NCBI GenBank assembly: GCA_963796275.1
Contig: CAWCKY010000003.1
Location: 1,120,001 to 1,184,000, forward strand
Source: an uncultured Acidobacteriota bacterium
GTDB lineage: Bacteria > Acidobacteriota > Blastocatellia > RBC074
Length of the DNA stretch: 64,000 nucleotides
Direction of reading: 5' to 3'
Below the pieces are notes generated by a model that had not been told where the DNA came from, did no database searches, and saw only the letters and a program-made list of their open reading frames with translations. Positions 2,719 to 44,985 of this stretch are shown here, piece after piece. Within the stretch, counting starts at the first letter, position 1. Every line of letters begins with the position of its first letter. A program made the translations under genes and the position numbers.

Positions 2719-2778
2719 CAATCGATTTCACATTTAAATTTGTTACGATATCCCCTTAAATCTCTGCATTAAACACTG

Positions 2779-3234
2779 TTACTTTTTATTCATTTCCGCA
2801 GTATCGAGCCAGATCGTTACCGGGCCGGAGTTATGAATTTCGACCAGCATATCAGCCTGAAATTCTCCGGTCTCAACCTTGAAACCCATCGCATTTAACT
2901 TTTGCACGAATTTTTCGTATAGGGGAATGGCTATTTCGGGCCGTGCGGCATCGGTGAAGCTCGGACGACGGCCTTTGCGAGCGTCGGCGAAGAGCGTGAA
3001 TTGCGAGATGACGAGCATTTCTGCATTCACCTCAAGCGCCGACAGGTTGAACTTACCCTCGATATCCGCAAAAATTCGCAAGTTGGCAATCTTATTCGCA
3101 ATAATGTCAACATCGGATTCTTCATCGCCGGCTCCGACGCCGAGCAAAATTACCAGTCCGGCATTGATTGAGCCGACGACTTCTCCTGCGATCGATACTC
3201 TTCCTTGTGTGACCCGTTGGATGACTGCGCGCAT
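2779..3234 (-). CDS. dtd: D-aminoacyl-tRNA deacylase
   Basis: MRAVIQRV start, SQFTL, KGRRPSF, GPVT motifs. Confidence 0.95.
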
Positions 3235-3244
3235 AAGAAGAATG

Positions 3245-3327
3245 GATAATTGATAATTGGTAGACACTGGGGCACGATTTATACGAATTATCAATTATCA
3301 ATTATCAATTATCAATTATCAATTATC
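3245..3327. repeat. Heptamer tandem repeat (AATTATC)x6 at 3286-3327 with inverted (GATAATT)x2 at 3245-3258
   Basis: Read directly from sequence. Confidence 0.95.
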
Positions 3328-4533: not shown

Positions 4534-4671
4534 ATTTATTGCTTCAACTATTGCTTGATATCATTGTGCGCCTATGTTAGCTTTCAGCCTGTTTTTACAC
4601 CATTTATTTCGTCGACGCATCGGCTTGTTTTATCAATATCAACAAATAGGAAATTTTTCTGGAGGCCCGGT

Positions 4672-5010
4672 ATGACCATTTCAGAACGTAAGAGTGGTGA
4701 CGTAACTGTTCTCGATGTAGAAGGCAAAATACTCCTCGGTGAAGGCGACGTCCAGTTAAAGCGCAAAATAGATGAATTGATCGAACGCAACGAGAAGCTA
4801 TTATTGCTCAACCTCGCGAATGTTCCGTATATGGATAGCGGCGGCCTCGGGGAGGTTGTCCGCAGTTATACGACTGTCAAGCGTGCAGGCGGCGATCTCA
4901 AGCTGGTCAATGCGACGAAGCGCATCAGCGATCTGTTGACGATCACCAAGCTGATCACAGTATTCGAGGTCTTCGATGACGAAGCGCATGCAGTGAATAG
5001 CTTCGCCTAA
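4672..5010 (+). CDS. STAS-domain anti-sigma factor antagonist
   Basis: LLNLANVPYMDSGGLG, LLTITKL; GGAGG RBS upstream. Confidence 0.9.
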   Translation: MTISERKSGDVTVLDVEGKILLGEGDVQLKRKIDELIERNEKLLLLNLANVPYMDSGGLGEVVRSYTTVKRAGGDLKLVNATKRISDLLTITKLITVFEVFDDEAHAVNSFA

Positions 5011-5042
5011 ACGAAACGTCGAAGAACACCAGGACACCGAAA

Positions 5043-5103
5043 AGGCGAAATAAACTGAACAAACGAACAACCATTGGCATCGTTTGTTCTGTTTATTTCG
5101 CCT
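5043..5103. terminator. 24-bp inverted repeat between convergent genes (likely bidirectional terminator; nonamer-type palindromic repeat)
   Basis: AGGCGAAATAAACTGAACAAACGA pairs with TCGTTTGTTCTGTTTATTTCGCCT (23/24). Confidence 0.75.
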
Positions 5104-5125
5104 GTTTCGCATCTCCCTTCCGCCA

Positions 5126-6304
5126 TCACTTCGCCGCTCCATACTTCCGTAATATCTCTGTGACTTTATCTATGGGCAGCGCCTCGGCTCGATGGCCGTC
5201 GCGGCCGGTGACCGTGGTTGCACGCAGGAGCGAGTTATAGATCGCTTCCTCGGTGGCTTCTACAACGGCCTGAAATAAAGGCGACATCGAATCATTGCCG
5301 AGCGTTCGGATAGTACGCAGCTGTTCGCCGGCGCGGATGCGGTTTTCTTCGGATGTGCTGAATGCGATGATGTAATCGCCGCTCCCTTGCGTTGAAGGTG
5401 ATCCGGTGCGGCCCAGTCCGAGCATGGCGCGCGCCGCCAGTCGCTTCAAATTGCGCGCGTCGAGCGGGGCATCGGTGGCTACCACAATAATTATCGATCC
5501 ATCGGCTCTATCTCGGCCAGGATCATCGGGGATATCGTTGCGGCCGACTCGTTCGAGTTGTTCCTTCAGGTAATAACGGCGGAGCTCGCGGCCGACAGGC
5601 GCGCCGTTGATCGTCAATACCCCGCCGAAATTCGATTGAACGAGTACTCCGACCGTGTAACCGCCGAGGTTTTGCGGAAGCGCTCGGGACGATGTGCCGA
5701 TGCCGCCTTTATACCCGAAAGCCACGGTGCCCGTGCCGGCGCCGACCGAGCCTTCGGCGATTGGGCCGTCCTTCGCTGTTTTTAAGGCCGCGAAAACTTC
5801 ATCCCGCCCGACGTGGCGTCCCCGAATGTCGTTGAGATAACCGTCGTTCGTTTCGGCGACTATCGGATTGATTGAACGAACATCCTCATTGCCCGGCAAG
5901 GCGAGCATCCAATCGATCAGAGCGTCGGCGACCCTGGGTACATTGAGCGTGCTGGTGAGCAGGATCGGCGTTTCGATTTCGCCGAGCTCATCGACCTGAG
6001 TCGACCCTATCAGTTTGCCGAAACCGTTGCCGACGAAGATCGCTGCCGGGATCTTTTCCTGAAAGAGATTGCCTGAGTGAGGGATGATCGCAGTCACTCC
6101 CGTTCTCACCTTATCACCTTTGCTCAAAGTGGTGTGGCCGACTCGCACGCCCGCGACATCCGTGATCGCATTCAGTCTTCCCGTTGGTATGATTCCCACT
6201 TCGATCCCAAGATCTCGCGCTCGGGGGCGCGGCTTTTCAGAGCTCGTCTGACTCATAAGTAACAGGAGGAAAAGCAAAGGATATGTAATTCTCGCTGCGG
6301 TCAT
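5126..6304 (-). CDS. P1/S58 family (DmpA-like) aminopeptidase with signal peptide
   Basis: NAITDVAGVRVGH, GNGFGKLIG, EGSVGAGTG, DGSIII autoproteolysis site. Confidence 0.9.
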   Translation of the reverse strand: MTAARITYPLLFLLLLMSQTSSEKPRPRARDLGIEVGIIPTGRLNAITDVAGVRVGHTTLSKGDKVRTGVTAIIPHSGNLFQEKIPAAIFVGNGFGKLIGSTQVDELGEIETPILLTSTLNVPRVADALIDWMLALPGNEDVRSINPIVAETNDGYLNDIRGRHVGRDEVFAALKTAKDGPIAEGSVGAGTGTVAFGYKGGIGTSSRALPQNLGGYTVGVLVQSNFGGVLTINGAPVGRELRRYYLKEQLERVGRNDIPDDPGRDRADGSIIIVVATDAPLDARNLKRLAARAMLGLGRTGSPSTQGSGDYIIAFSTSEENRIRAGEQLRTIRTLGNDSMSPLFQAVVEATEEAIYNSLLRATTVTGRDGHRAEALPIDKVTEILRKYGAAK

Positions 6305-6308
6305 TGAT

Positions 6309-9236
6309 TCAGCCCGTATTTCTCATTCCGGCCGCAATCCCATTGATCGTCAGCAGGATGGCATATAGTAGCTTTTCGCGCTCCCGGGCGGAAGCTTTAC
6401 CGGCCCGCTTACGTGCGAGCAATTCGACCTGTAAATAACTCATCGGGTCGACATAAGGGTTGCGCACGGCGATCGATCGTTGCAGAAACGGCGAATTATC
6501 GAGCAATCTTTTCTCCCCCGTAATTTGTAGGACAATGCGACAGGCGAGTTTATATTCATCTTCGAGCATTTCGAATATTCGTTTACCCAGAGTGCGATCG
6601 GGAGTGCGCGCGGCGTATTGCCGTGCAACCTGAAAATCCGCTTTGGCCAATGACATTTCGATGTTCGAGATGGTGCTATGAAAGAACTCCCAATCGTTAT
6701 ACATCTCGCGCAACAGTTCGAGATTCTTTCTTCCGGCACTGAACTTATCGAGAGCTGTGCCGACAGCGAGCCAGCCGGGCAACAGATGCCGGCTCTGCGT
6801 CCATCCGAAAACCCACGGAATCGCACGCAGATCATCGAGACTTTGCGAGCCCTCTTTTCGCTTAGCTGGCCGTGACCCGATGCGTAGATGCTGTAACTCC
6901 TCGACTGGCGTCGCTTGAATGAAGTAATCGTAAAAACCCTCGGTCTCCCGGATAAACCGGCGGTAAGCTGCGAATGCGTCTTGAGAAATGCTCTCCATCG
7001 CATCTTTCCATAGGGAAAGTTGCTCATCATTGTGCTTCTCCTGCGGTAAACTGGCGGCGACAGCTGCAGCGGTTGTCAGCTCCAAACTACGCAGGGCGAT
7101 CTCGGGCAGACCGTACTTTGAGGAGATAACTTCTCCCTGTTCGGTGATCTTTATCCGCGATGCTACCGTCTCGGGAGGTTGCGCCAGGATAGCTTCGTGA
7201 CTCGGGCCGCCGCCGCGGCCGACCGTCCCTCCACGGCCATGAAACAGGCGTAATTCGACGCCATTCATGCGCGCGACCTCCCATAAATTCTCCTGCGCTT
7301 TGTATAACTCCCAGCTCGAAGTCAATATCCCACCGTCTTTGCTGCTATCCGAATAACCGATCATTACTTCCTGCAGGTTCCCATGACTCTCGACTAGTCT
7401 TCGATAGATGCCTATCCCAAATAACCGATTCATCACCTGCGGTGCCCGTCGCAGATCGTCGATCGTTTCGAAAAGAGGCGTGACTGATAGAGAGAACGGA
7501 TAAACGGGAGAACCGGCGGCTTTTCTCTCATCTCCCGCTCCTCCGTTCTTCACAATACCTGCTTCTTTAGCCAGTACGAGCACGGCCAGGAGATCGCTGA
7601 CCTCGCGCGTCATGCTCACAATATACGTCCCGATGGCATTAGTGCAGATTTCATCGAACGCGCGCCGAGCGACCCGGAAGACGTTGAGCGTTTCCGTTGT
7701 TTCTATGCTATAACGGGCATCAGGCGACACCAGCGGGCGAATGCTCGAAAGCTCCTGTGTCAGCCATTCGAGGCGTTGTTCTTCATTCATCTGTGCGTAA
7801 TCGCGCGCAAATCCCAGGGTCTGTGTGATCTCCGTGAGCGCTGCCGTATGCCGTAAGCTGTGCTGCCGCAGATCGAGCCGGGCCAGGTAAAGATCGAAAG
7901 TCGCGACCTGCCGCAACAAACGGTCGATATCGCGCGCTGCGTATGTGGCCTTCCCCTCTCGCAGGCTCTCGCGTACCAGGCGCAGATCTTCCCACAGGTC
8001 CGCGCCTGTTCGATATAGACTTGCATTGGTCCCCGCTGAGCCGGCGGCTACCGCGGTCAGCGGGGTCGATTGGCGGATTGAGATCAGCGAATTCGGGGAT
8101 TCGGCTCTCAGCGAAGATGCCAGCATCTGATTATGCTGCAGAGTCCGATCGAGCCGCGTATAAATGAATGAGAGTTTTTGACGATACGGTTCTTCCGGGT
8201 TCCGTTTGAAAATCTCTGCCGCAATCTGCGGCATCTCGCGTGCATCTCGCGCGATCGAGGCGTGCAGCTCGCCGGTCGCCGGCGAGAGGCGGGATGATTC
8301 GCTCAGGCGCCGCGATAGATCTGCTACCGCGTTACGGTATTTTCGCAGTATCAGTCGCTGTTGCAGCCGCAGGGTCTCCCACGTGACTTCAGGGGTGACG
8401 AACGGATTCCCGTCGCGATCGCCTCCGACCCACGAGCCGAAACGCAAGGGAACTCGCGGTTCGTACATCTTCACGCTGGGGAAATTTTCAGAGAGCCGCC
8501 GCTCCAGCTCTTCGAGCATAATGGGAATTGAATCGAAGAGCGTCGTATCGAAGTAGTAGAGCGTATTGTTGACCTCATCGAGCACGGTTGGTTGCATGTG
8601 CCGCACTTCATCGGTATGCCAGACAGATTCGACTTCCGCGGCAAGTCGTTCAAGTAACTCCGTCTGTTTGCGCTTCGGAAGGTTTTGGTCATCGAAAGCG
8701 GTGAGCAGATCGGCGATGCGGCGATGCTTGTCGAGCAGCGTCCGCCGGGCTGCTTCGGTCGGATGCGCGGTCATTACCAGTTCGATCTCCAGACGGTCTA
8801 CCACGTGCTGGACGTTTTTACGTAATTCAGATTCGCTCAAATGTGTGTTTTCGTTCTTGATGCGGTTGAATGTATCCGCCAGCGAGCCGCGTTGCGGCTG
8901 GTCAGGCGTATGAAGTTCATAGAACCGCTTACGGCGAATGCGATGATGCTGTTCGGCGATATTTACGAGCTGAAAATAGACGGAGAAGGCCCGAATTACG
9001 CCAATGGCGTCATCGAGGTTCAATCCGTTCAGCAAATGTTTAAGTTTTCGTTCATCGGCAGGTGAATGATCGGTACGAAGTCCTTTGCAGAGAGCCCTGA
9101 CGCGCTCTTCGGTTTCGAAGAGCCTACTGCCGCCGAGGCGTTTCAGCGTCTCGCCCAGCAAGTCTCCGAGACGGTGTATGTCATTGCGTAGCGGCAGATC
9201 TTTTGACGATGTCTGTGCTTTACGATTATCGCTCAT
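6309..9236 (-). CDS. ppc: Phosphoenolpyruvate carboxylase
   Basis: VMTAHPTE, GSWVGGDRDGNP, VMIGYSDSSKDGG, FHGRGGTVGRGGGP, C-terminal MRNTG. Confidence 0.97.
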   Translation of the reverse strand: MSDNRKAQTSSKDLPLRNDIHRLGDLLGETLKRLGGSRLFETEERVRALCKGLRTDHSPADERKLKHLLNGLNLDDAIGVIRAFSVYFQLVNIAEQHHRIRRKRFYELHTPDQPQRGSLADTFNRIKNENTHLSESELRKNVQHVVDRLEIELVMTAHPTEAARRTLLDKHRRIADLLTAFDDQNLPKRKQTELLERLAAEVESVWHTDEVRHMQPTVLDEVNNTLYYFDTTLFDSIPIMLEELERRLSENFPSVKMYEPRVPLRFGSWVGGDRDGNPFVTPEVTWETLRLQQRLILRKYRNAVADLSRRLSESSRLSPATGELHASIARDAREMPQIAAEIFKRNPEEPYRQKLSFIYTRLDRTLQHNQMLASSLRAESPNSLISIRQSTPLTAVAAGSAGTNASLYRTGADLWEDLRLVRESLREGKATYAARDIDRLLRQVATFDLYLARLDLRQHSLRHTAALTEITQTLGFARDYAQMNEEQRLEWLTQELSSIRPLVSPDARYSIETTETLNVFRVARRAFDEICTNAIGTYIVSMTREVSDLLAVLVLAKEAGIVKNGGAGDERKAAGSPVYPFSLSVTPLFETIDDLRRAPQVMNRLFGIGIYRRLVESHGNLQEVMIGYSDSSKDGGILTSSWELYKAQENLWEVARMNGVELRLFHGRGGTVGRGGGPSHEAILAQPPETVASRIKITEQGEVISSKYGLPEIALRSLELTTAAAVAASLPQEKHNDEQLSLWKDAMESISQDAFAAYRRFIRETEGFYDYFIQATPVEELQHLRIGSRPAKRKEGSQSLDDLRAIPWVFGWTQSRHLLPGWLAVGTALDKFSAGRKNLELLREMYNDWEFFHSTISNIEMSLAKADFQVARQYAARTPDRTLGKRIFEMLEDEYKLACRIVLQITGEKRLLDNSPFLQRSIAVRNPYVDPMSYLQVELLARKRAGKASAREREKLLYAILLTINGIAAGMRNTG

Positions 9237-29367: not shown

Positions 29368-30025
29368 ATGTCATACTGGATGACTCTATATCGCAAGCTG
29401 TTTATCTTGAGCCTTGGATTGGGATTGATGACTGCTTGCTTTTTCTTAGTTGAGGTCTGGGCGAGCCGCCACTATTCAAGCAGGGCCCTGCAGAGCGCAC
29501 TGCCAGACCTAATACCTGCTACGACACTCCCTGGCACAGAGGATGAGATGAAGTGGTGGCAAACAGTTCGATCGCAGGCCGTGAAGCCGTCGCATCCTGG
29601 GCACGTAAGGACGAAGCAATCACCAAAGCCAAACGCAGACAGATAAGAGTCGCGTGGGGTATATCCGCTCATGCGAAGAGAAGGTATCTGATTCCACCAA
29701 ACAATTCGTGAGCTTGATGCGCGAGGCAGGTGAAAAATCATATCGAGTGCCGGTGCCTGACAACCGCCCTATCATTCTCCATAAAACCATGCCGAACTAC
29801 ACCGATGAGGCACGGCGGAGGAAAGTTAAGGGATCTGTCGTCATCTCTACAATGTTTCTTGCTGACGGGGAAGTTGGCGATGTCAGGATTGTACGGGGAT
29901 TGGGAGCGGGATTGGATGAAAAGGCATCTGAGGTTGCCCGCCAGATTCTCTTTCTTCCAGCAGTCAAGGATGGAGTGTTTGTTCCAACCCACTCCAACGT
30001 GGACATGGGGTTCAACATTTACTGA
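29368..30025 (+). pseudogene. TonB C-terminal domain protein, frameshifted
   Basis: N-terminal TM segment; PNYTDEARRRKVKGSV...GLGAGLDEKA...FLPAVKDG. Confidence 0.75.
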
Positions 30026-30152
30026 GCGGGCATTTTGGGAGATACGAGTTTGGACAAATAGGGGATGGTCAAATGGCCTATCCATATGGATGTTAACTTT
30101 GCCAGAACTGTATGGTCCTAAACTCCATATCAGGCTAAGCAGGAGGCACAAA

Positions 30153-32298
30153 ATGCATGCTGTATCAGGAGGCGCTTGCGCCAGTTGCAGAGCCATCTGC
30201 CTTTTCATTGCCATCGGGTTGTTACTAGGCGGCAAGGGAAAAGCGCAGGAGAAAACTGACATACTCCATGATCTCGCGCAGAAATTGCAATCTCCTGACA
30301 GAGTCACCCGTCGCACTGCGGTAGAGGCGTTAGGAGTGTTTGGGGCGGTGGCTATGCCCGCCTTAATCGGCGCGCTCAAAGATCAGGACGCGGAGGTTCG
30401 CGTCTCTGCGGCAGAGGCGTTAGTGAATATTGGGCCGGCGGCGAAGGAAGCAGTGCCAGCACTGATCGTGGCACTCAAGGATCCGGAGGAAATGCTTCGC
30501 TTCTACGCAGCGTGGGCATTAGGGCAGATCGGTCCCGAGGCGAAGGAAGCCGTGCCGGCACTTATCGCCGCACTCAAGGATCCGAATGAATTTGTTTACG
30601 ACGTCGCACAAAATGCATTAAAGCGAATAGGGACAGCAGCCGTGCCTGCGTTGATCATCGCGCTCAAGTATCCGGAGGTAGGTGATCGCAGCTCCGCGGC
30701 AGAGGCATTAGGAAAGGTTGGGCCGGCGGCGAAGGAAGTAGTGCCGGCGCTGATTGAGGCACTCAAGGATCCAGAGCCGCGTGTTCGCAGCTCCGCGGCC
30801 AAGGCACTGGGGGAGATCGGGCCCGAGGCAAAGGAGGCTGTGCCCGCGCTGATCCTGGCACTGAAAGATCCGGATGCACGTGTCCGCGGCTCCGCAGCAT
30901 ACGCGTTCAAAGGGATTGGGCCGGCAGCGAAAGAGGCCGTTCCGGTGCTTATCGCCGCGCTCAAGGATCCACGGGAAAGTGTTCGCGGCGCCGCAGCATC
31001 ACTAGGATGGATTGGGCCTGAGGCGAAGGAAGCAGTGCCGGCGCTGATTGCTGCGCTCAAGGATCCACATGAAATTGTTCGTAACTCCGCAGCATCCTCA
31101 TTAGGGCAGATCGGTCACGAGGCGAAAGAGGCCGTGCCTGCCTTGATCGCCGCGCTCAAAGATCCGGATGGAGTTGTTCGCGGCTCCGCAGCCAATGCAT
31201 TGGCGCGGATAGGGCCGGAAGCCGTGCCTGCCTTGATCCCCCTGCTCAAGGATCCTGGGGTAGGTGTCCGCAACCTTGCATTCCATGCATTAGGGCAGAT
31301 CGGTCCCGAGGCGAAGGAAGCAGTGCCGGCACTTATCGCCACACTCAAGGGATCCGGACGCAAACATTCGCATCGCCACACAAAATGCATTAAAGCGAAT
31401 AGGGACAGCAGCCGTGCCTGCGTTGATCATCGCGCTCAAGTATCCGGAGGTAGGTGATCGCAGCTCCGCGGCAGAGGCATTAGGAAAGGTTGGGCCGGCG
31501 GCGAAGGAAGTAGTGCCGGCGCTGATTGAGGCACTCAAGGATCCAGAGCCGCGTGTTCGCAGCTCCGCGGCCAAGGCACTGGGGGAGATCGGGCCCGAGG
31601 CAAAGGAGGCTGTGCCCGCGCTGATCCTGGCACTGAAAGATCCGGATGCGCATGTCCGCGGCTCCGCAGCATCACTAGGGGGAATTGGGCCTGAGGCGAA
31701 GGAAGCAGTGCCGGCGTTGATTGCTGCGCTCAAGGATCCGGATGCACGTGTTCGCAGCTCCGCGGCTAGTGCGCTAGGGTGGATTGGACCTGAGGCAAAG
31801 GAGGCTGTGCCCGCGCTGATCCTGGCACTGAAGGATCCGGAGGCAAATGTCCGGAGCTCCGCAGCATATGCGTTCAAAGGGATCGGGGCGGCGGCGAAAG
31901 AGGCTGTGCCCGCGCTTATTGAGGTGCTAAAGAATGGAATACTCGCTAATAGAATACTCGCTAGCGGCTCCGCAGCAGAGGCCTTGGTGGGAATCGGGCC
32001 GGAAGCCGTGCCTGCCTTGATCCCCATGCTCAAGGATTCGGATGCAAGGGTTCGAAGTTCCGGAGCCTTTATATTAGGGCGAATCGGGCCGGCGGCGAAG
32101 GATGCCGTGCCAGTGTTAATCGAGTGGCTCAAGGATCCAGATGCGAATGTTCGCAGTTTCGGAGCAAATACATTAGGTGGGATCGGGCTGGCGGCGAAGG
32201 AGGCCATGCCGGCGCTGATTGAGGCACTCAATGACCCGGAGTCACGTGTTCGCAGCTCCGTAAAAGGAGCATTAGCGAAGATCGGATCTGCGCCATAG
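30153..32298 (+). CDS. Secreted HEAT-repeat (PBS-lyase-like) protein, one extra G at 31349-31351
   Basis: AGGAGG RBS, signal peptide, about 20 copies of ALKDP..VR..AA.ALG.IGP.AKEAVP; removing one G joins both ORFs. Confidence 0.88.
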
Positions 32299-38142: not shown

Positions 38143-38343
38143 TCACGCAACAAAAGGGTATTCATTTACAAATTCCCCCTCAAGCGATTCCGACAAACAC
38201 AAGGTATTCAAGACAAAAAAATCCTTCAATACCAAAGGTTGGCATTCTCTTACGAGCAGATCGCCATCGTTGATCCCGGCATTGATCATCGAATCGCCAT
38301 GGCCGGAAGTCTGGTAGGCGAGATTGTCAGGAGCTTTTGCCAT
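38143..38343 (-). pseudogene. LexA/S24 peptidase fragment
   Basis: GDSMINAGINDGDLLV motif only. Confidence 0.55.
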
Positions 38344-38766
38344 ATCCTCAACGGTTTCTATAATCGCGGGCTTGGCCGGTAATTTGAGCAGAATGTTCTT
38401 AAGTATTGGTTTGCCGAACTTCCAAGCGTCGATCGTGGTCGGCGCGGTGGGGTGATGATGGTCACCTCAAACTTTGTGACATGACCGGCTAGGCTCATCT
38501 GCCTCCGATATTTCGTATGGGTGAGAACGGTAATGCCATGACTTGCTAGCCCCGGCGCGCACAAGGCTGAGGACGCTGTGTTGCTCTGGCAGAGCGTTCT
38601 GCAATAGAATCCGGCTAGTTCCTAAGCAGTCAGATCGAGCGCAGCAACTGGGCTTCTCAAGCGACTGTCCCTGTCACCGTCTCGTCCCACAGCGAAGATT
38701 ACTCAGAGAGCCGCTTAGAAATCCTTTGAAATTCCCTTTTTATTTTTAGAGGTTCTTAGAACGGCG

Positions 38767-40143
38767 ATGAGTAGTTCGACCATACATTTCTACGAGTTCG
38801 ATTCCTTCCGCATTGATCTAGTGAGACGTCGTCTGCTACGCGACAATGAAGTGGTGCCGCTGACGGAGAAGGTTTTTGCTACCTTGTCGGCGCTCGTCGA
38901 ACACAGCGGGCAGGTAGTAAGGAAGGATAGGTTGATGGAGCTGATCTGGCCCGATAGCTTTGTTGAGGAGGGCAACCTCTCCTTCAACGTCTGCGTACTG
39001 CGCAGGGCGCTCGGCGAAAGGCCTCACGAGCACCGTTACATCATGACGGTTCCAGGGGAAGGCTACCGCTTTGTGGCTAGTGTGAAGCCGATTGAGTCAG
39101 GCGATACAATTCCAGATACGGCTGTGCGCCGGGAGGAGCCGGCGCCTCCCGGCGGCGCGCTCCGCTTGAATTCTTCATTCTACATTACGCGGCCGACCGA
39201 CGAGCGATTCCGGGAGGCCATCAAGCGGCAAGACAGCATCATACTGGTTAAGGGGGCGCGGCAGGTGGGCAAATCATCGCTCTTGGCCCGCGGTTTTCAT
39301 CAGGCGCGGGAGGCGGGAGCCAAAGTGGTCTGGACCGATTTCCAAAGTCTCAACGCCGCCTACCTGGAATCGGCCGAGAAGCTCTTTCTGATGCTCGCCG
39401 AATTGGTGGCTGACCAACTCGATCTGGACGTCTCCCCCGATCAAGTTTGGAATCCCCGCATCGGTCCGAGCAGTAACCTCGAGCTCTACTTGCGGCGTGA
39501 GGCGTTGGCCAATGTTTCGGCCCCGATCGTGTGGAGCCTGGATGAGGTTGATCGACTTTTCGCCTGCGATTTCGGAAGCGAGGTCTTCGGGCTGTTTCGC
39601 TCCTGGCATAACCTGCGAGCGATCGAGCCGGCCTGGCAGCGGCTCACGCTCGTGATGGCATATGCGACCGAAGCGCGTCTGTTCATCACCGACCCTAATC
39701 AATCGCCATTCAACGTCGGGACGCACTTCCGGCTCGGAGACTTTACTTTCGAACAAGTGTCCGAACTCAACCGCCGCTATAACTCTCCTTTGCCTGATGG
39801 CGAAGCAGTCGCGCGATATTTCCATTTGGTCGGCGGGCATCCCTATCTGGTACAGCGCGGCCTATACGAGATGGCGGGCGGGCTGGAATGGACGGCTTTG
39901 GAGGCTCAGGCGGACGATGATGAGGGGTTATTCGGCAACCATTTGCGCCACCTGCTCGACTCGCTCAGATGGGACGCGGCGCTGTGTGAAGTAGTGAGCG
40001 GGCTACTTCGGGGAGAGCCGTGTGCGACCGCGGATAGTTTTTACCGCCTGCGCAGCGCAGGTGTGGTGGTGGGAAACTCTGCGCGCGAGGCGAAGCTGCG
40101 CTGCCAGTTGTATGCAAACTATCTCAGCCGGCATTTGCTGTAA
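38767..40143 (+). CDS. CadC/OmpR-type winged-HTH fused to AAA_35 STAND-like NTPase
   Basis: YEFDSFRID...WPDSFVEEGNL...LRRALG...YIMTVPGEGYRF; GARQVGKSSL Walker A, LDEVD Walker B, SPFNVG, GGHPYL. Confidence 0.9.
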   Translation: MSSSTIHFYEFDSFRIDLVRRRLLRDNEVVPLTEKVFATLSALVEHSGQVVRKDRLMELIWPDSFVEEGNLSFNVCVLRRALGERPHEHRYIMTVPGEGYRFVASVKPIESGDTIPDTAVRREEPAPPGGALRLNSSFYITRPTDERFREAIKRQDSIILVKGARQVGKSSLLARGFHQAREAGAKVVWTDFQSLNAAYLESAEKLFLMLAELVADQLDLDVSPDQVWNPRIGPSSNLELYLRREALANVSAPIVWSLDEVDRLFACDFGSEVFGLFRSWHNLRAIEPAWQRLTLVMAYATEARLFITDPNQSPFNVGTHFRLGDFTFEQVSELNRRYNSPLPDGEAVARYFHLVGGHPYLVQRGLYEMAGGLEWTALEAQADDDEGLFGNHLRHLLDSLRWDAALCEVVSGLLRGEPCATADSFYRLRSAGVVVGNSAREAKLRCQLYANYLSRHLL

Positions 40144-40182
40144 CCGCTCATCGCTATTCAGCTCATCCGCGCCACGAAGAGT

Positions 40183-40229
40183 TTCTAAGAACTTCTAAGC
40201 GCCTTTAAAGACTTCTCAATGGTCTTCAG
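40183..40229. promoter_or_regulatory. Phased direct repeats TTCTAAG (10-11 bp period), putative wHTH operator
   Basis: TTCTAAG at 40183 and 40193, TTTAAAG at 40204; inverted near-copy at 38745-38761. Confidence 0.5.
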
Positions 40230-40311
40230 CGTAGGGTCATCTCGGTCGTGATTCGATCATTGGGGTATTCGATCTCACAACCGTTACACCTTCGTAAAGG
40301 AAATAATCGTT

Positions 40312-43300
40312 ATGAGCGACTCTCAAATCAGCTTCTACGTTGTCGGCGGGACGCTGCCGTCGCGCGCCCCTTGTTATATACAGCGGCGCGCGGACCTGGA
40401 TTTGTACGAGGGTCTGAGGGAAGGAAGCTTTTGCTACGTGCTCACCTCGCGACAGATGGGCAAATCCAGCCTGATGATCCGCACTGCGGCGCGTTTGCGC
40501 GAAGAGGGTACGAACGTTGTGTTGCTAGACCTGGCGGCGGTCGGGCAGAACCTCAGCGCCGAGCAATGGTACGGCGGTCTCCTCATGCGGATGGGATCAC
40601 AGATGGGTCTGGTGGATGAGTTGCTGCGATTCTGGCAGGATCACCCATTGCTCGGCCCGATGCAACAATGGATGCAGGCGATACGCGAATTGGTATTGCC
40701 GCGCGTAACCGGGAGGATGGTGATCTTCGTGGACGAGATTGACGCGGTGCGGAGTCTGCCGTTTTCGACTGATGAGTTCTTCGCCGGGATTCGCGAATTC
40801 TACAACCGCCGCACTGAAGACTCGGAACTTCAGCGACTGACCTTCTGCCTGCTCGGAGTGGCATCGCCATCAGATCTGATCCGCGATACACGCACGACGC
40901 CGTTCAACATAGGGCAGCGGATTGAGCTGAATGATTTCACTGAGGCCGAAGCGGGGCCACTGGCCCAAGGGCTGAATCACAGTGAACGGCTCGGCGGGAA
41001 GCTGCTCAAGCGGGTTCTCTACTGGACGGGGGGGCATCCATACTTAACGCAGCGGTTCTGCCAGGCGATAGTTGAAGAGGCAAGGGAGGATACCACTGCC
41101 GAAGTTGATCGCCTGTGTCAGGAACTGTTTCTCTCACACCTTGCGCAGGGGCGAGACGACAATCTGCTGTTTGTCCGTGAACGAATGCTGCGCAGCGAGG
41201 TCGATCTGGCGGGCCTGCTCAGCCGCTACGCTCAGGTGCATGCAGGCAAGCGCATACGCGATGACCTGACCAATCCTTTGATCGGCGTCCTACGGTTGTC
41301 TGGAGTCACGCGGGCGGTTGGCGGCTACCTGGCGGTAAGGAATCGCATCTACGAGCGTGTCTTCGACCGAGAATGGTGTAACACGAATATGCCGGATGCT
41401 GAGCAGCGGCGACAATCGGCGGCCTACAGGCGGGGTATACGACGTGCCGCTGCCGTAGCCGCTTTGATCCTTATCCTTCTTTCCGGCTTATCAATTTACG
41501 CATTCAGGCAGCGCAACCGCGCCAATCAATATGCGAGGGAGCAAGGGCTAACGCTAACCAGATTACAGAGTGCTCTAGGCCAAGCGAAGCGGCAGGAAGA
41601 GGCAGCCATCGAGCACCGCAAGCTGGCGGAAGAGCAACGATGGGAAGCTGAACAGCAACGGCAGGTGGCAGAATGGCAGCGCGCCGAAGGCCAAACGCAA
41701 CGCAACCGAGCCGTGAGGGAAGAGCAATCCAATCGCAAGTTATTATATGCGGCGCATATGAATATGGCGCAACAGTCTTGGGAGATCGCTGATGTAAGAC
41801 ACGTCGAAGAGCTGTTGAATTCGTACCGCCCATATTCTGGGGGTGAGGACCTACGGGGCTTCGAGTGGTACTACTTGTGGCGTCTCTCGCATAGATTTTC
41901 ATCTACATTGCGCCACAATGGCGTTGTCCATTCAGTGGCCTTCTCGACCGACGGAAAGCAGCTGGCGACTGGGAGCAGTGATCGTACAGTCAAGCTATGG
42001 GACGCCGCTACCGGCCAGGAGACGCTCACACTCAAGGGGCATCCGAGCATTGTCACTTCTGTGGTCTTCTCCCCCGACGGAAAGTGGCTGGCGACCGCGA
42101 GTTGGGATAACACAGTCAAACTGTGGGACGCCGCTACCGGACAGGAGACGCTCACACTCAAGGGGCATTCGGACGAGGTCACTTCGGTGGCATTCTCGCC
42201 TGACGGGAAGCGGCTGGCGACCGGGAGTTGGGATAGCACAGTCAAACTGTGGGACGCCGCCACAGGCCAGGAGACGCACACCCTCAAGGGGCATTCGTAT
42301 CGGGTCACATCGGTGGCCTTCTCGCCCGACGGAAAGCGGCTGGCGACCGCGAGTTGGGATAACACAGTCAAACTGTGGGACACTGCTACCGGCCAGGAGA
42401 CGCTCACACTCAAGGGGCATTCGGGCTTGGTCACATCGGTGGCCTTCTCGCCCGATGGGAAGCGACTGGCAACCGGGAGTTGGGATAGCACAGTCAAACT
42501 GTGGGACGCCGCCACAGGCCAGGAGACGCTCACCCTCAAGGGGCATTCGGAAGAGGTCACATCGGTGACCTTCTCGCCCGACGGGAAGTGGCTGGCAACC
42601 GGGAGCGTTGATCGCACAGTCAAGCTGTGGGACGCAACAGGCCAGGAGACGCTCACACTCAAGGGGCATTCGTACCCGGTCGCTTCGGTGGCCTTCTCGC
42701 CCGACGGGAAGTGGCTGGCAACCGGGAGTAGTGATCGCACAGTCAAGCTGTGGGACGCAACAGGCCAGGAGACACTCACACTCAAGGGGCATTCGTACCC
42801 GGACGCTAATATGCTCATCTCTGGGAAGCGGCTGGCGACCAGGAGCGTAGATGGCACTGTCAAGCGGTGGGAGCTCACTGGCCAGGAGCTCACCCTCAAA
42901 GGGCATTCGGATCGATTCATTTCGGTGGCCTTCTCGCCCGACGGGAAGCGGCTGGCGACCGGAAGCTACCGCACAGTCAAGCTGTGGGACGCCGCCACCG
43001 GCCAGGAGACGCTCACCCTCAAAGGGCATTCGGAACAGGTCACATCGGTGGCCTTCTCGCCCGACGGGAAGCGGCTGGCGACCGCGAGTTGGGATCACAC
43101 AGTCAAGCTATGGGACGCCGCCACCGGCCAAGAGACGCTCACACTCAAGGGGCATCCGAGCATTGTCACTTCTGTGGCCTTCTCCCCCGACGGGAAGCGG
43201 CTGGCGACCAGAAGCTACCGCACGGTCAAGCTGTGGGACGTCGCTACCGGCCAGGAAACGCTCACCATCAAGGGGCATTCGGAACAGGTCACATCGATGG

Positions 43301-43866
43301 CCTTCTCGCCCGACGGGAAGCGGCTGGCGGTTGGGAGCAGTGATCCCACAGTCAAGCTGTGGGACACCGCCACCGGCCAGGAGACGCTTACCCTCAAGGG
43401 GCATTCGAGCTATGTCCCGTCGGTGGCCTTCTCGCCCGACGGGAAGCGGCTGGCGACCGCGAGTTGGGATCACACAGTCAAGCTGTGGGACGCCGCCACC
43501 GGCCAGGAGACGCTCACCCTCAAAGGGCATTCGGAACAGGTCACATCGGTGGCCTTCTCGCCCGACGGGAAGCGGCTGGCGACCGCGAGTTGGGATCACA
43601 CAGTCAAGCTGTGGGACGCCACCACCGGCCAGGAGATGCTTACCCTCAAAGGGCATTCGGAACGAGTCATTTCGGTAGCCTTCTCGCCCGATGGGAAGCG
43701 GCTGGCGACCGCGAGTTTTTCTGGCACAGTCAAGCTATGGGACGCCGCAACGGAACAGATCGGGATCACCGACGAAGTTTTGTCCCAACGGAATTATTCT
43801 ATTAGAAATAACTGTCATGAAACTCCTGGAAGCGTGTCAATCCGGTACAGGCTTGGGATACGGTAA
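40312..43866 (+). CDS. AAA_35 NTPase - TM - coiled coil - 15 WD40 repeats
   Basis: SRQMGKSSL, FVDEID, TPFNIG, GGHPYLTQ; TM AVAALILILLSGLSIYAF; GH...VAFSPDGK.LAT...TVKLWD repeats. Confidence 0.92.
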   Translation: MSDSQISFYVVGGTLPSRAPCYIQRRADLDLYEGLREGSFCYVLTSRQMGKSSLMIRTAARLREEGTNVVLLDLAAVGQNLSAEQWYGGLLMRMGSQMGLVDELLRFWQDHPLLGPMQQWMQAIRELVLPRVTGRMVIFVDEIDAVRSLPFSTDEFFAGIREFYNRRTEDSELQRLTFCLLGVASPSDLIRDTRTTPFNIGQRIELNDFTEAEAGPLAQGLNHSERLGGKLLKRVLYWTGGHPYLTQRFCQAIVEEAREDTTAEVDRLCQELFLSHLAQGRDDNLLFVRERMLRSEVDLAGLLSRYAQVHAGKRIRDDLTNPLIGVLRLSGVTRAVGGYLAVRNRIYERVFDREWCNTNMPDAEQRRQSAAYRRGIRRAAAVAALILILLSGLSIYAFRQRNRANQYAREQGLTLTRLQSALGQAKRQEEAAIEHRKLAEEQRWEAEQQRQVAEWQRAEGQTQRNRAVREEQSNRKLLYAAHMNMAQQSWEIADVRHVEELLNSYRPYSGGEDLRGFEWYYLWRLSHRFSSTLRHNGVVHSVAFSTDGKQLATGSSDRTVKLWDAATGQETLTLKGHPSIVTSVVFSPDGKWLATASWDNTVKLWDAATGQETLTLKGHSDEVTSVAFSPDGKRLATGSWDSTVKLWDAATGQETHTLKGHSYRVTSVAFSPDGKRLATASWDNTVKLWDTATGQETLTLKGHSGLVTSVAFSPDGKRLATGSWDSTVKLWDAATGQETLTLKGHSEEVTSVTFSPDGKWLATGSVDRTVKLWDATGQETLTLKGHSYPVASVAFSPDGKWLATGSSDRTVKLWDATGQETLTLKGHSYPDANMLISGKRLATRSVDGTVKRWELTGQELTLKGHSDRFISVAFSPDGKRLATGSYRTVKLWDAATGQETLTLKGHSEQVTSVAFSPDGKRLATASWDHTVKLWDAATGQETLTLKGHPSIVTSVAFSPDGKRLATRSYRTVKLWDVATGQETLTIKGHSEQVTSMAFSPDGKRLAVGSSDPTVKLWDTATGQETLTLKGHSSYVPSVAFSPDGKRLATASWDHTVKLWDAATGQETLTLKGHSEQVTSVAFSPDGKRLATASWDHTVKLWDATTGQEMLTLKGHSERVISVAFSPDGKRLATASFSGTVKLWDAATEQIGITDEVLSQRNYSIRNNCHETPGSVSIRYRLGIR
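41900..43752 (+). repeat. Tandem ~123-126-bp WD40-coding DNA repeats
   Basis: Near-identical GTCAAGCTGTGGGACGCCGCCACCGGCCAGGAGACGCTCACCCTCAAGGGGCATTCG units. Confidence 0.95.
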
Positions 43867-44985
43867 TAAGAGCTTTTCCGCAAACCACGTTCGCGAGATT
43901 GTGGAAAAGTTGAATCTATTCATTTGCGCATGTGTGAATCCTGACGGACGCCATTTCAGCCAGACGAGCGATCCGATGTGGCGCAAGAACCGCCGCCCAC
44001 ATTCGGGTGGTGGAAATTGTGTGGGCGTCGATTTCAATCGCAATTTCGATTTCCTTTGGGACCATTTGAGAAAGTTTGCCGGTGACTCTGTAGTGAGCGC
44101 TTCGGACGATCCCTGTAACAAGAATGTATATCGTGGCCCGTCACCCGCATCGGAGCCAGAGACAAGGAAGGTCGTCTGGCTGTTGGATACCTTCCCGCGA
44201 ATCCGGTGGCATGTGGATATGCATAGCGCTGTCCCGGTAATTTTGTACAGTTGGGGTAGTGACAAAACAATCAGACGACAGCCCCTGCTCAGACGTTTTT
44301 AAATAGTGCATTCGATGCGGTCCGGGGACGCGCAAACGATGCCGCGTATGGCGAGTACATTGCACAGAATGATCTCAGCATCGCCGCAACAGTGGCCAAG
44401 AACGTGAACGACGCCTTGAAAGCAGTTCGCGGCATCGACTATGGTGTTGAGCAGGCATTTGGCCTATATCCGACGTCCGGTGCAAGGGACGACTATGCAT
44501 TCGGCCGCTATTTTGCTGATCTCTCGAAAGCCAAGGTCTATGGTTTCACTATAGAGTGCGGCCAAAGCTTTCAACCAGCTTGGTCGGAGGCTGAAGAAGT
44601 TATCCGGGAAGTGTCAAGTGGTCTGATTGGCCTGTGCCTCGAAGCATCTTCCAGCGCGCCTATTCCGATTGTGGCGTCTGAAGGAACCGACATCGTGCTG
44701 GTCCGACAGACCGCAGGTTGGAACACGATCCCGATTGCGTTTTCCAATGAAGACGGCGGTTGGCGCATCACCAACGGCGGAGCGCCCGACTTCATTGCCA
44801 ACTGGGCCAGTCAGCCTGGAGTGAGATTAGTGACCGGTGACTTCAAAGACCATAAATACCGGGATACATTCATTGCGCCGCTACCCGGAGGAAGCGAAGC
44901 AAAACCGATTGCCCGAAGCTGCTGCCGATTGACAACCGGCAAAGTTTGTAGATTAACGCTACGAAAGGTATGTCACGAAAGGTAA
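43817..44985 (+). pseudogene. M14 zinc carboxypeptidase, N-terminally truncated and frameshifted
   Basis: VNPDG, WRKNR, GVDFNRNF, SEPET, DMHS, YPTSG..DD, FTIE; HxxE region missing. Confidence 0.85.

What the first reader, a model, noticed from the sequence alone, without database searches (positions are those of the whole stretch)
41900..43752. WD40 array with concerted-evolution signature and variable positions (7 + degenerate + 7)
Seen: repeats are near-identical even at many synonymous sites. Variation concentrates after GH (PSI, SDE, SYR, SGL, SEE, SYP, SDR, SEQ, SSY, SER) and around the structural Asp (SDR, WDN, WDS, VDR, WDH, SDP). Identical variants recur in non-adjacent repeats (PSIV in 2 and 11; SEQV in 10, 12 and 14). 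Repeat 8 is degenerate and separates two sets of seven. Known: fungal HNWD NLRs such as Podospora HET-E diversify specificity this way. Inference: a double propeller whose recognition surface is reshuffled by inter-repeat recombination.
Basis: partly seen in the sequence, partly recalled or inferred. Interest (0 to 1): 0.7.

Follow-up and report, generated by a model that had tools for sequence, protein, structure and literature searches.

The report
Hypervariable WD40 sensor of two-gene switch
A soil acidobacterium carries a membrane-anchored ATPase whose 15 look-alike WD40 blades differ mainly on their binding face and are shuffled among themselves, a receptor design already known from cyanobacteria and fungi.

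Summary
Window 41911-43776 holds 15 WD40 units of 126 nt (7 + a degenerate eighth + 7) inside one intact 1184-aa gene (40312-43866). Units are 82-86% identical in DNA. Framework codons have dS 0.29 and dN 0.04. Variation sits at columns 4, 5, 7, 23 and 25, which include the canonical top-face hotspots and the four HET-E sites under positive selection. Twenty related arrays vary at the same columns. A recombination test (PHI, 0 of 5000 permutations), a 138-nt exact tract shared by non-adjacent units, and missing positional orthology with related arrays all indicate unit turnover.

The protein reads AAA_35 ATPase, conserved transmembrane helix, coiled coil, then two seven-bladed propellers that are probably outside the cytoplasm. 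The gene upstream (38767-40143) is a second AAA_35 ATPase with a winged-helix DNA-binding head. In relatives that head is a kinase, TIR, caspase or cyclase. The pairing is conserved in 48 of 66 loci, and a complex model passes its controls.

This matches the published WRAP two-gene arrangement of Nostoc (PDB 2YMU) and highly repetitive bacterial WD40 proteins. It is a new member of a known kind. The scan has found similar arrays on other DNA. Function is inferred, not shown.

The parts
38337..38364 (+). sigma-70-like promoter match about 400 nt upstream of the partner gene
   Evidence: 11 of 12 hexamer matches. It is the only such site in 38300-44400, where shuffles give a mean of 2.1. No terminator-like site lies in the 168-nt gap between the two genes. 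This is weak evidence for one transcription unit.
38767..40143 (+). partner gene, 458 aa: OmpR-type winged helix (Trans_reg_C) plus a complete AAA_35 ATPase
   Evidence: Pfam Trans_reg_C E 2e-17 (res 28-102) and AAA_35 E 2.1e-75 (res 128-454). Walker A G168/K169, Walker B D259/E260 and R278 are invariant in 30 sequences. No hydrophobic window reaches 1.6 in 0 of 30 partner sequences.
40312..43866 (+). sensor gene, 1184 aa, intact ORF: AAA_35, TM helix, coiled coil, 15 WD40 units
   Evidence: ORF list and Pfam.
40348..41079 (+). AAA_35 ATPase core (residues 13-256)
   Evidence: Pfam AAA_35 E 2.3e-29. G50/K51/S52, D141/E142 and R161 are invariant in 29 sequences. AF2 model has pLDDT 88.7. Nearest folds are the archaeal AAA+ entries 2FNA and 2QEN, ORC/Cdc6, RuvB, CED-4 and MalT.
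41449..41505 (+). predicted transmembrane helix (residues 380-398)
   Evidence: The 19-residue Kyte-Doolittle mean is 2.38. A window of at least 1.6 occurs at the same place in 28 of 29 relatives. The N side carries more K+R in 20 of 27 sequences (7 equal, 0 fewer), and net charge is higher on the N side in 26 of 27.
41506..41910 (+). coiled-coil and pre-propeller segment (residues 399-533), part of the exchanged sensor module
   Evidence: The long helix continues from residue 363 in the AF2 model. pS against L055, L052 and L054 drops from 0.67-0.68 (res 1-399) to 0.35-0.41 here, with bootstrap intervals that do not overlap.
41911..42786 (+). WD40 units R1-R7, first seven-bladed propeller
   Evidence: Unit table. 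Block pLDDT is mostly 83-98, falling to 77-88 in the last blade.
42787..42900 (+). degenerate unit R8 (38 codons) between the two propellers
   Evidence: Three in-frame deletions and 65-79% nt identity to the other units. pLDDT is below 50 in the model.
42901..43776 (+). WD40 units R9-R15, second seven-bladed propeller; R15 diverges in its last third
   Evidence: Unit table. Block pLDDT is 69-95.
42972..43109 (+). 138-nt tract (R9 3' part plus R10 5' part) repeated exactly at 43473-43610
   Evidence: It is the longest exact direct repeat in the array. It carries the variable codons SEQ and ASWDH.
43473..43610 (+). second copy of the 138-nt exact tract (R13 3' part plus R14 5' part)
   Evidence: In the permutation test, the R10-R14 run of 37 of 51 identical polymorphic sites was reached by 0 of 2000 permutations.

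Best explanation
The array is the ligand-binding end of a two-protein, NLR-like switch.

Shown:
- The sensor is one intact gene. An AAA_35 P-loop ATPase with intact Walker motifs is followed by a conserved hydrophobic helix, a coiled coil and 15 WD40 units, modelled as two seven-bladed propellers joined by a decayed eighth unit.
- The blades share an almost fixed framework. They differ at five columns in the D-A loop, strand A and the B-C turn.
- Units are mosaics of one another.

Inferred:
- Unequal crossing-over and gene conversion between units keep the framework alike in DNA. The same processes move variable cassettes around, while selection favours change on the top face. Binding specificity would then evolve fast.
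- The helix puts the ATPase in the cytoplasm and the propellers outside it, so the ligand is extracytoplasmic.
- Ligand binding changes the state of the sensor's ATPase. That ATPase pairs through a standard AAA+ protomer interface with the AAA_35 ATPase of the upstream gene product.
- The partner's head delivers the output. Here the head is a DNA-binding winged helix, so the output is transcription. In relatives it is a Ser/Thr kinase, TIR, caspase or cyclase.
- The range of heads points to non-self or conflict sensing in the family as a whole. The ligand is unknown.
For: Anatomy.

Framework against hot columns. In 36 framework columns dS is 0.29 and dN 0.036. In columns 4, 5, 23 and 25 dN is 1.0 and omega 1.8. 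When the hot columns are defined from other proteins' arrays, dN at columns 4, 5, 7, 23 and 25 is 1.8-3.5 times framework dS in all 5 arrays with DNA. Tree-free minimum nonsynonymous changes per site are 1.0-3.0, against 0.64-1.22 for synonymous changes.

Top-face position.

Recombination:
- PHI gave 0 of 5000 permutations at windows of 5 and 8 informative sites and p = 0.0004 at 12. 56% of informative site pairs are incompatible.
- R11 combines the R2-type 5' half, including synonymous markers, with the R9-type 3' half, including its 3-nt deletion.
- A 138-nt exact tract is shared by non-adjacent units.

Concerted evolution:
- Against L050, the framework amino acids are the same (pN 0.11) but dS is 2.0 between arrays, compared with 0.18 and 0.34 within them.
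- Against L055, L052 and L054, internal units show no positional orthology. Only the terminal units R1 and R15 match their counterparts best (for L052, R1 only).
- The nearest neighbour lies in the unit's own array for 13 of 15, 9 of 15, 8 of 15 and 8 of 14 units.

Topology.

Partner:
- A partner-like AAA_35 ORF ends less than 1 kb upstream in 48 of 66 sensor-like ORFs that have at least 1300 nt of upstream sequence.
- Heads found: Pkinase, Pkinase+TIR, two TIR, Peptidase_C14, Trans_reg_C, and BTAD (in one case with a below-cutoff Trans_reg_C match).
- Among the best 120 partner homologues I tallied 77 kinase (4 also with TIR), 19 winged helix, 11 TIR without kinase (5 with a cyclase domain) and 13 with AAA_35 only.

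Complex model. ipSAE is 0.66 (runs 0.69, 0.65, 0.66) and the best of 3 controls is 0.00. That mark was reached by 116 of 157 solved complexes and 2 of 215 mismatched pairs. The runs share at least 71% of contacts and partner pLDDT is at least 82. The interface includes the sensor's Walker A region and D141, and partner residues 229-287 including the invariant R278.

Published parallel. The WRAP protein of Nostoc carries a STAND ATPase and is coupled to a second ATPase gene bearing TIR or caspase (passages read in PMC9218822).
Against: - No experiment and no expression data exist. No sequencing run holds this locus, so neither repeat-number variation nor the assembly could be checked at read level.
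- Omega above 1 comes from counting methods on short, recombining units, not from a likelihood site model. Three of the five arrays (L055, L052, L054) are close kin.
- Within-array dS (0.34) is only slightly below the dS to the L055-group arrays (0.38-0.51). Homogenisation since that split is therefore modest. Much of the likeness could date from one older amplification.
- The two ATPases are paralogues, about 30% identical. The complex pass may reflect the generic AAA+ protomer interface known from solved oligomers. It does not separate hetero- from homo-oligomers.
- Topology rests on hydropathy and the positive-inside rule only.
- PADLOC has no model for the sensor, and the partner matches only weakly at its P-loop. 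This locus has a DNA-binding head, not a death effector. An immune role is therefore an extrapolation from relatives.
- The unit-finding HMM was built from this array, which favours similar units in relatives.
Confidence: 0.6

Rival explanations
1. One-off recent amplification. The array was amplified from a single blade, as proposed for WRAP propellers. It has since only accumulated point changes, and no exchange between units is going on.
For: High internal identity is what amplification gives. Pereira and Lupas argue that even very similar WRAP propellers were amplified independently (passages in PMC9218822). Here, within-array dS of 0.18-0.34 is below the dS of 1.6-2.0 to L050, which either model would produce.
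Against: - 56% of informative site pairs fail the compatibility test, and incompatibility rises with distance (PHI 0 of 5000).
- Mosaic units such as R11 share synonymous markers with different units in their two halves.
- A 138-nt exact tract sits in an array whose units otherwise differ by about 14%.
- Framework dS of 0.29 shows the array is not young as a whole.
- Terminal units keep orthology with relatives while internal units do not.
Confidence: 0.15
2. Cytoplasmic sensor. The hydrophobic helix only tethers the protein to the membrane, or is not a membrane span at all. The propellers then sense an intracellular ligand such as a phage protein, as Avs/STAND defence proteins do.
For: Known bacterial STAND and NLR-like sensors act in the cytoplasm, and WD40 sensors occur among defence-associated STANDs (passages in PMC13581612). 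Relatives carry TIR, caspase and kinase heads on the partner.
Against: A single strongly hydrophobic 19-22-residue segment lies between the two halves in 28 of 29 relatives, with positive-inside bias on the ATPase side. With one span the two halves must lie on opposite sides, and the ATPase needs cytoplasmic ATP. The same TM-coiled coil-WD module follows Ser/Thr kinase and nSTAND heads in other proteins. 111 of 117 further WD-region hits have such a window anywhere in the protein; six were inspected for position, and four showed it 100-185 residues before the first blade.
Confidence: 0.15
3. Ordinary scaffold. The WD40 domain is a structural or protein-docking module, and its variable positions drift neutrally because they are unconstrained loops.
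For: Loops are the least constrained parts of WD40 blades. The counting methods used here cannot fully exclude relaxed constraint.
Against: Nonsynonymous change at the hot columns exceeds the synonymous rate of the framework 1.8-3.5-fold in 5 of 5 arrays. Neutral drift would not exceed it. The bottom-face loops (SPDGK, AATGQ) are almost invariant. The same five columns are hot in 20 related arrays.
Confidence: 0.07
4. Assembly artefact. The array's order or copy number is a mis-assembly of a repeat.
For: A 138-nt exact repeat lies inside the array. Read-level support could not be obtained. Short-read metagenome graphs shatter on this repeat family. The two closest metagenome relatives lack the array altogether.
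Against: The ORF is open over 3555 nt and all unit-length differences are in frame. Every unit is distinct, with at most 94% identity to any other. The genome is in 7 contigs of up to 2.9 Mb. Related full-length genes have 14-15 units and the same ends.
Confidence: 0.03

Closest known systems
[quoted passage not shown] 2014, known to me only through passages in PMC9218822 and PMC6805158)
   Same: The C-terminal highly repetitive WD40 array folds as two seven-bladed propellers. 2YMU is the best sequence match (E 9.4e-180) and the best fold match (E 2.6e-56, 51% identity). The propeller protein carries its own ATPase. Its gene is coupled to a second ATPase gene with a variable N-terminal effector, TIR or caspase. 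Here the partner heads are winged helix, kinase, TIR, caspase and cyclase. Disrupted copies with in-frame stops occur in WRAP relatives, and the paralogue in this genome has one.
   Different: WRAP has no synonymous differences between blades. Here dS is 0.29-0.34 and there is clear mosaicism. The ATPase here is Pfam AAA_35. Cyanobacterial proteins with similar arrays in my searches carry nSTAND1, NACHT or AAA_16 and do not match the AAA_35 profile. This locus's output head is a DNA-binding domain. I could not read the original paper, so I do not know whether the transmembrane helix was described there.
Podospora anserina HNWD family (HET-E, HET-D, NWD) fungal NLRs
   Same: WD repeats are highly conserved internally and under concerted evolution. 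Four positively selected codons form two pairs flanking a conserved residue, in the d-a loop and the b-c turn on the propeller top (PMC1805685, passages). These correspond to columns 5, 7, 23 and 25 here.
   Different: HNWD proteins have a NACHT NTPase and a HET death domain in one cytosolic polypeptide, and they exchange repeats among about ten paralogous loci. Here the ATPase is AAA_35, a transmembrane helix is present, the effector sits on a separate protein, and the genome holds only one such array plus a two-unit fragment.
Highly-Repetitive (HR) prokaryotic WD40 proteins of Hu et al. 2017 (PMC5587647)
   Same: Internal identity is at least 0.7, repeat numbers are large, and the sites that stay diverse are the predicted interaction hotspots (passages).
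   Different: That survey is a catalogue. The passages I read contain no occurrence of 'AAA', 'Acidobacteria' or 'immune', and describe neither a partner gene nor a membrane topology for this family.
STAND / NLR-like regulators with DNA-binding heads (AfsR/SARP type, MalT); recalled from general knowledge
   Same: An OmpR-type winged helix, in relatives with BTAD, is joined to a P-loop oligomerisation ATPase. MalT and CED-4 are among the fold matches of the ATPase.
   Different: In those proteins the sensor repeats are in the same polypeptide. Here the sensor sits on a second, membrane-anchored paralogue.

Membership tests
Highly repetitive / highly internally conserved WD40 proteins (Hu 2017; Dyrka 2014, 2020) | internal repeat identity of about 0.7 or more | tested here: met
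   Mean pairwise amino-acid identity is 0.79 over 14 detected units. This is my own measure, not the WDSP procedure of the paper.
Highly repetitive / highly internally conserved WD40 proteins (Hu 2017; Dyrka 2014, 2020) | residual diversity concentrated at predicted top-face hotspot positions | tested here: met
   Entropy peaks fall at columns 4, 5, 7, 23 and 25 in this array and 20 related ones. Columns 5, 7 and 23 are R1-2, R1 and D-1 by the sequence rule of PMC3419727.
WRAP two-gene system (Nostoc Npun_R6612) | C-terminal WD40 double propeller closely similar to 2YMU | tested here: met
   phmmer E 9.4e-180. Foldseek rank 1, E 2.6e-56, 51% identity. Two confident seven-blade blocks in the model.
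WRAP two-gene system (Nostoc Npun_R6612) | propeller protein carries a STAND ATPase | tested here: inconclusive
   Pfam assigns AAA_35, with no NACHT, NB-ARC or nSTAND match. Fold matches mix archaeal AAA+ (2FNA, 2QEN), ORC/Cdc6, RuvB, CED-4 (TMq 0.52) and MalT. The Atlas places nSTAND1 clusters at 0.90-0.91, behind AAA_35 clusters.
WRAP two-gene system (Nostoc Npun_R6612) | adjacent, co-oriented gene for a second ATPase with a variable N-terminal effector | tested here: met
   Partner at 38767-40143. The pairing holds in 48 of 66 loci. Heads are listed.
WRAP two-gene system (Nostoc Npun_R6612) | no synonymous differences between blades (very recent amplification) | tested here: not met
   Framework dS is 0.29-0.34.
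Fungal HNWD NLRs (HET-E/HET-D) | NACHT NTPase and N-terminal HET domain in the same protein | tested here: not met
   Only AAA_35 passes the Pfam cut-off in residues 1-533, and it starts at residue 13.
Fungal HNWD NLRs (HET-E/HET-D) | diversifying selection at two codon pairs in the d-a loop and the b-c turn | tested here: met
   counting methods; positions.
Fungal HNWD NLRs (HET-E/HET-D) | repeat exchange among several paralogous loci of one genome | tested here: not met
   The genome has one such array, a divergent paralogue (0.39 internal identity) and a two-unit fragment. Exchange of the whole sensor module between family members is, however, indicated.
Canonical NLR / STAND tripartite receptor | effector, NOD and sensor repeats in one cytosolic polypeptide | tested here: not met
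   The effector is on a separate protein, and a transmembrane helix separates the ATPase from the repeats.
Diversity-generating retroelement target | nearby reverse transcriptase and template repeat | tested here: not met
   RVT_1 matches lie only on contigs C1, C4 and C6, and none on C3, which holds the window.
Known anti-phage defence systems (PADLOC v2) | match to a defence-system protein model | tested here: not met
   The sensor N-terminal half matches 0 families. The partner gives only P-loop-local matches to PDC-S01, with E from 1.6e-4.

The most novel reading that the evidence does not exclude
This family would be a bacterial counterpart of a cell-surface pattern-recognition receptor rather than an intracellular NLR. 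A fast-evolving double propeller is displayed outside the cytoplasm. A TM-coiled coil-propeller cassette is swapped between different cytoplasmic heads (AAA_35, nSTAND, Ser/Thr kinase). The signal passes across the membrane to an ATPase hetero-oligomer, which fires a kinase, TIR, caspase, cyclase or transcription-factor head. In this reading, soil Acidobacteriota and their neighbours sense extracellular non-self, such as competitors, phage particles or kin, with receptors that diversify by repeat shuffling.
Probability: 0.3. Interest if true: 0.8.

Novelty: new member of a known kind. Interest (0 to 1): 0.45.

Why it matters
This is a well-resolved bacterial example of receptor diversification by repeat shuffling. 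It comes with DNA-level controls from related arrays, which most catalogue studies lack.

Three features make it more than another entry in the list:
- The sensor appears to face outward.
- The whole TM-coiled coil-propeller module has a younger history than the ATPase it is fused to.
- The partner gene carries interchangeable output heads, including TIR, caspase and kinase domains.

If the topology and the pairing hold, the family offers a tractable model for how an NLR-like ATPase pair relays an extracellular recognition event. The homologue searches were capped, but they returned 6420 sensor-like and 4129 partner-like proteins. The family lives in phyla, Acidobacteriota and Armatimonadota, where almost nothing is known about non-self sensing.

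Tried and rejected
- Read-level check of the array. The look-up of sequencing runs found no run holding the stretch, only two soil metagenomes at a 0.05 share of words. Laying their contigs gave only 60-95-nt unitigs on the repeat framework, and most fit two places (499 of 702 and 232 of 345). This says nothing about this locus or its habitat.
- Strain-level orthologue for a direct comparison of unit order. The N-terminal search gave at best 77% identity. The same-genus genomes G001 and G002 gave 43-45%. The WD-region search gave at best 69%. A partner protein 96% identical exists on a metagenome contig (P0121), but I could not fetch its DNA.
- Genome-collection loci as DNA controls. Of the 46 loci then held (34 from the genome collection, 12 from relatives' genomes), none held a full highly conserved array. 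The metagenome scan supplied four.
- DGR mechanism: rejected.
- Defence-system models: no informative match.
- Literature on PF14516/AAA_35. The search was swamped by unrelated tokens. 'AAA-like domain' with WD40, TIR, caspase and transmembrane returned nothing relevant among the 15 papers listed. The eLife 2020 conflict-systems paper describes other systems, in the passages I read. The original WRAP paper (PMID 24333018) is not held.
- The first choice of hot columns from the same data is circular. I repeated the test with columns defined on other proteins.
- Complex prediction met a full queue four times before it was accepted unchanged.

Full report
WHAT IS THERE. The window belongs to a 9.46-Mb genome in 7 contigs. 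Homologues with names come mostly from Acidobacteriota, especially Blastocatellia and Pyrinomonadaceae, and some from Armatimonadota.

One ORF, 40312-43866 on the + strand (1184 aa), contains the array. Tandem Repeats Finder gives period 126, 14.6 copies and 83% matches at 41931-43748. This is the highest-scoring tandem repeat of the genome apart from a homopolymer run.

Cutting at the GH motif gives 15 units. R1-R7 and R9-R15 are regular, at 41-42 codons. The length differences are single-codon deletions, and they recur: R6 and R7 share one, and R9 and R11 share another. R8 has 38 codons and is degenerate.

HOW ALIKE, AND WHERE DIFFERENT. Mean nt identity is 81.8%, or 85.8% without R1, R8 and R15. 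It does not decline with distance along the array.

In 36 framework columns dS is 0.29 and dN 0.036. In columns 4, 5, 23 and 25 dN is 1.0 and omega 1.8. That choice of sites is circular, so I took the hot columns from other proteins instead. In 20 related arrays the entropy peaks are the same, at columns 4, 5, 7, 23 and 25, on a nearly identical framework consensus.

With those columns, dN is 1.8-3.5 times framework dS in all five arrays for which I had DNA. A tree-free minimum-change count gives the same direction. Three of those arrays are close kin, and these are counting methods, not likelihood tests.

STRUCTURE. AlphaFold2 on the WD region used a 5-sequence alignment and gave mean pLDDT 78.6 and pTM 0.50. 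It shows two confident blocks of seven blades, with R8 between them at pLDDT below 50.

In each unit, strand A covers columns 6-11, B covers 17-22, C covers 26-31 and D covers 37-42. Columns 4 and 5 therefore lie in the D-A loop, column 7 at the start of strand A, and columns 23 and 25 in the B-C turn. The A-B (SPDGK) and C-D (AATGQ) loops are nearly invariant.

By the sequence rule of Wu et al. 2012, columns 5, 7 and 23 are the R1-2, R1 and D-1 top-face hotspots (passages). In HET-E the selected codons 7, 9, 25 and 27 flank conserved codons 8 and 26 in the same two loops (passages). That is the same geometry as columns 5/7 around V6 and 23/25 around D24. The tool gives no coordinates, so solvent exposure was not computed. 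The top-face assignment rests on secondary structure plus these papers.

The best solved relatives are 2YMU, 'a highly repetitive propeller structure', the designed WRAP-T proteins and Apaf-1.

TURNOVER OF UNITS.
- Among 12 regular units, 27 sites are parsimony-informative and 56% of their pairs are incompatible. Nearby sites are more compatible than distant ones (PHI: 0 of 5000 permutations at two window sizes, 0.0004 at a third).
- R11 shares its 5' half with R2, including synonymous markers. It shares its 3' half with R9, including the codon deletion.
- A 138-nt tract spanning R9/R10 recurs exactly at R13/R14, 501 nt away.

Four full-length relatives with DNA came from metagenome contigs. 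Against L050, framework amino acids are alike (pN 0.11). Synonymous divergence is 2.0 between arrays, against 0.18 and 0.34 within them. That is the classical signature of concerted evolution or independent re-amplification.

Against L055, L052 and L054 the between-array dS is only 0.38-0.51. There is no positional diagonal: only R1 and R15 match their terminal counterparts best (for L052, R1 only). The nearest neighbour lies in the unit's own array for 13 of 15, 9 of 15, 8 of 15 and 8 of 14 units.

I read this as continuing birth, loss and conversion of internal units on a pool that is about 0.3 dS deep. It does not look like a single recent burst.

A CHIMERIC GENE HISTORY. Between the query and the L055 group, the N-terminal 533 codons have dS 1.2 while the array has 0.4. 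A sliding window places the change near the transmembrane helix. pS is 0.67-0.68 for residues 1-399 and 0.35-0.41 for residues 400-533, and the bootstrap intervals do not overlap. Against L050 both parts are saturated, so there is no general synonymous constraint.

The TM-coiled coil-propeller module therefore has a younger common ancestor with those relatives than the ATPase does. Consistent with a mobile module, the HMM of the query's N-terminal part matches only its last 120 or so positions (TM to pre-propeller) in Ser/Thr-kinase-headed proteins. 111 of 117 further WD-region hits have a strongly hydrophobic window. In four of the six I inspected it lies 100-185 residues before the first blade, including the two Nostocales proteins with nSTAND1 or NACHT heads.

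THE REST OF THE PROTEIN. Residues 13-256 match Pfam AAA_35 at E 2.3e-29, and nothing else passes. Walker A (G50 K51 S52), Walker B (D141 E142) and R161 are invariant in 29 sequences.

The AF2 model of residues 1-403 (pLDDT 88.7) is closest to the archaeal AAA+ ATPases 2FNA and 2QEN, then ORC/Cdc6, RuvB, CED-4 and MalT, with TM-scores of 0.35-0.52. It is an ORC/STAND-like ATPase with a winged helix, but not a NACHT or NB-ARC by sequence.

Residues 380-398 form a hydrophobic helix that is conserved in 28 of 29 relatives and has positive-inside bias on the ATPase side. The propellers should therefore lie outside the cytoplasm. This is inferred.

THE PARTNER. The gene 168 nt upstream (38767-40143) encodes Trans_reg_C plus a complete AAA_35. 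There is no terminator-like site in the gap.

A partner-like ORF ends less than 1 kb upstream of 48 of 66 sensor-like ORFs with enough upstream sequence. In 31 related genomes, 22 have a match to the sensor's N-terminal part. That tally includes the unpublished genome G004, and no other claim uses it. The second system in this genome has the same winged-helix partner, but its sensor has ordinary divergent blades and an in-frame TAA.

Across relatives the partner's ATPase is conserved at 49-79% identity, while its head changes: kinase, kinase+TIR, two TIR, caspase, winged helix, BTAD (in one case with a below-cutoff winged-helix match), and TIR+cyclase.

A complex model of the two ATPase domains passes. 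The score is 0.66 and the best of 3 controls is 0.00. That mark was reached by 116 of 157 solved complexes and 2 of 215 mismatched pairs. The runs agree in at least 71% of contacts, and partner pLDDT is at least 82. My own alignments were used, so these counts hold only roughly. The interface brings the sensor's nucleotide site against partner residues 229-287, including the invariant R278. Because both chains are AAA+ paralogues, the pass may simply reflect the general protomer interface of solved AAA+ rings.

COMPARISON WITH WHAT IS KNOWN.
- Highly repetitive WD40 proteins with diverse hotspot sites were catalogued in prokaryotes by Hu et al. 2017 (passages).
- Bacterial NLRs with highly conserved WD and TPR repeats were noted by Dyrka et al. 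(passages).
- The closest match is the WRAP system. The Nostoc protein whose propellers are 2YMU carries a STAND ATPase and is transcriptionally coupled to a second ATPase with a TIR or caspase head, with frequent disrupted copies. It was interpreted as innate immunity (passages in PMC9218822; PMC6805158). A note from this scan's earlier findings led me to that paper.

The present locus fits that arrangement. It differs in three ways: an AAA_35-type ATPase, appreciable synonymous divergence with mosaicism, and a DNA-binding output head. I could not read the original 2014 paper, so I cannot say whether the membrane helix was described there. PADLOC holds no model for the sensor.

VERDICT. The object is a member of a known kind, and this scan has met similar arrays on other DNA. 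What my calls add:
- DNA-level evidence for unit turnover.
- The module swap at the membrane helix.
- The predicted outward topology.
- The census of partner heads.

Function, ligand and topology remain untested.

Noticed in passing
genome contig C6:2018754-2021992 (outside the window): A homopolymer run of 2794 plus 445 bases. It is the top TRF hit of the genome and probably an assembly oddity.
   Followed up: no
window 29730-32298: Two overlapping ORFs are full of HEAT repeats (HEAT_2 E 4e-87 and 9e-48). TRF reports period 195, 7.4 copies and 67% matches at 30432-31867. This is a second repeat-protein locus 8 kb upstream.
   Followed up: partly
L088 (G000:C3:327500-334500), 1295-5812: A paralogous two-gene system in the same genome. 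A Trans_reg_C-AAA_35 partner is followed by an AAA_35-TM-WD40 sensor. The sensor's blades are ordinary (internal identity 0.39) and it is cut by an in-frame TAA inside a WD unit.
   Followed up: partly
L089 (G000:C7:1047500-1051500), 1726-2070: An orphan ORF holds two WD units of the same repeat type (HMM score 70.8). It is flanked by stops and lies next to a thioesterase gene, and is probably a decayed fragment.
   Followed up: partly
L047 and L048, about 6400-6600: These are the two closest N-terminal relatives among the fetched loci with DNA (74% identity), both on metagenome contigs. Their reading frame stops at the conserved FEWYYL motif just before where the array should begin, and unrelated DNA follows. 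This is either natural loss of the array or an assembly jump.
   Followed up: partly
window 43691-44985: A Peptidase_M14 fragment (profile positions 80-196 of 286) begins in another frame, overlapping the 3' end of the WD gene. It is followed by an ORF with no Pfam match. The sensor's own C-terminus is about 25 residues longer than in relatives, which end soon after the last blade.
   Followed up: partly
genome contigs C4 and C6, e.g. C4:533097-534264 and C6:1252545-1253579: Many tandem arrays of about 79-nt period are 94-98% identical and scattered over the genome. Their nature was not examined.
   Followed up: no
P0121 (protein from a 29.5-kb metagenome contig): This partner protein is 96% identical to the window's. 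No sensor above 77% was found in the length band searched, so the neighbouring sensor in that close relative may be truncated, broken by assembly or replaced.
   Followed up: no
L052 and window R9, R11: Loss of the structural Asp codon in the B-C turn (GS-Y-RTV here; GSG-PTI, GSG-RTI and GSS-RTI in L052) recurs in separate arrays. Length variation also occurs at the hot loop.
   Followed up: no
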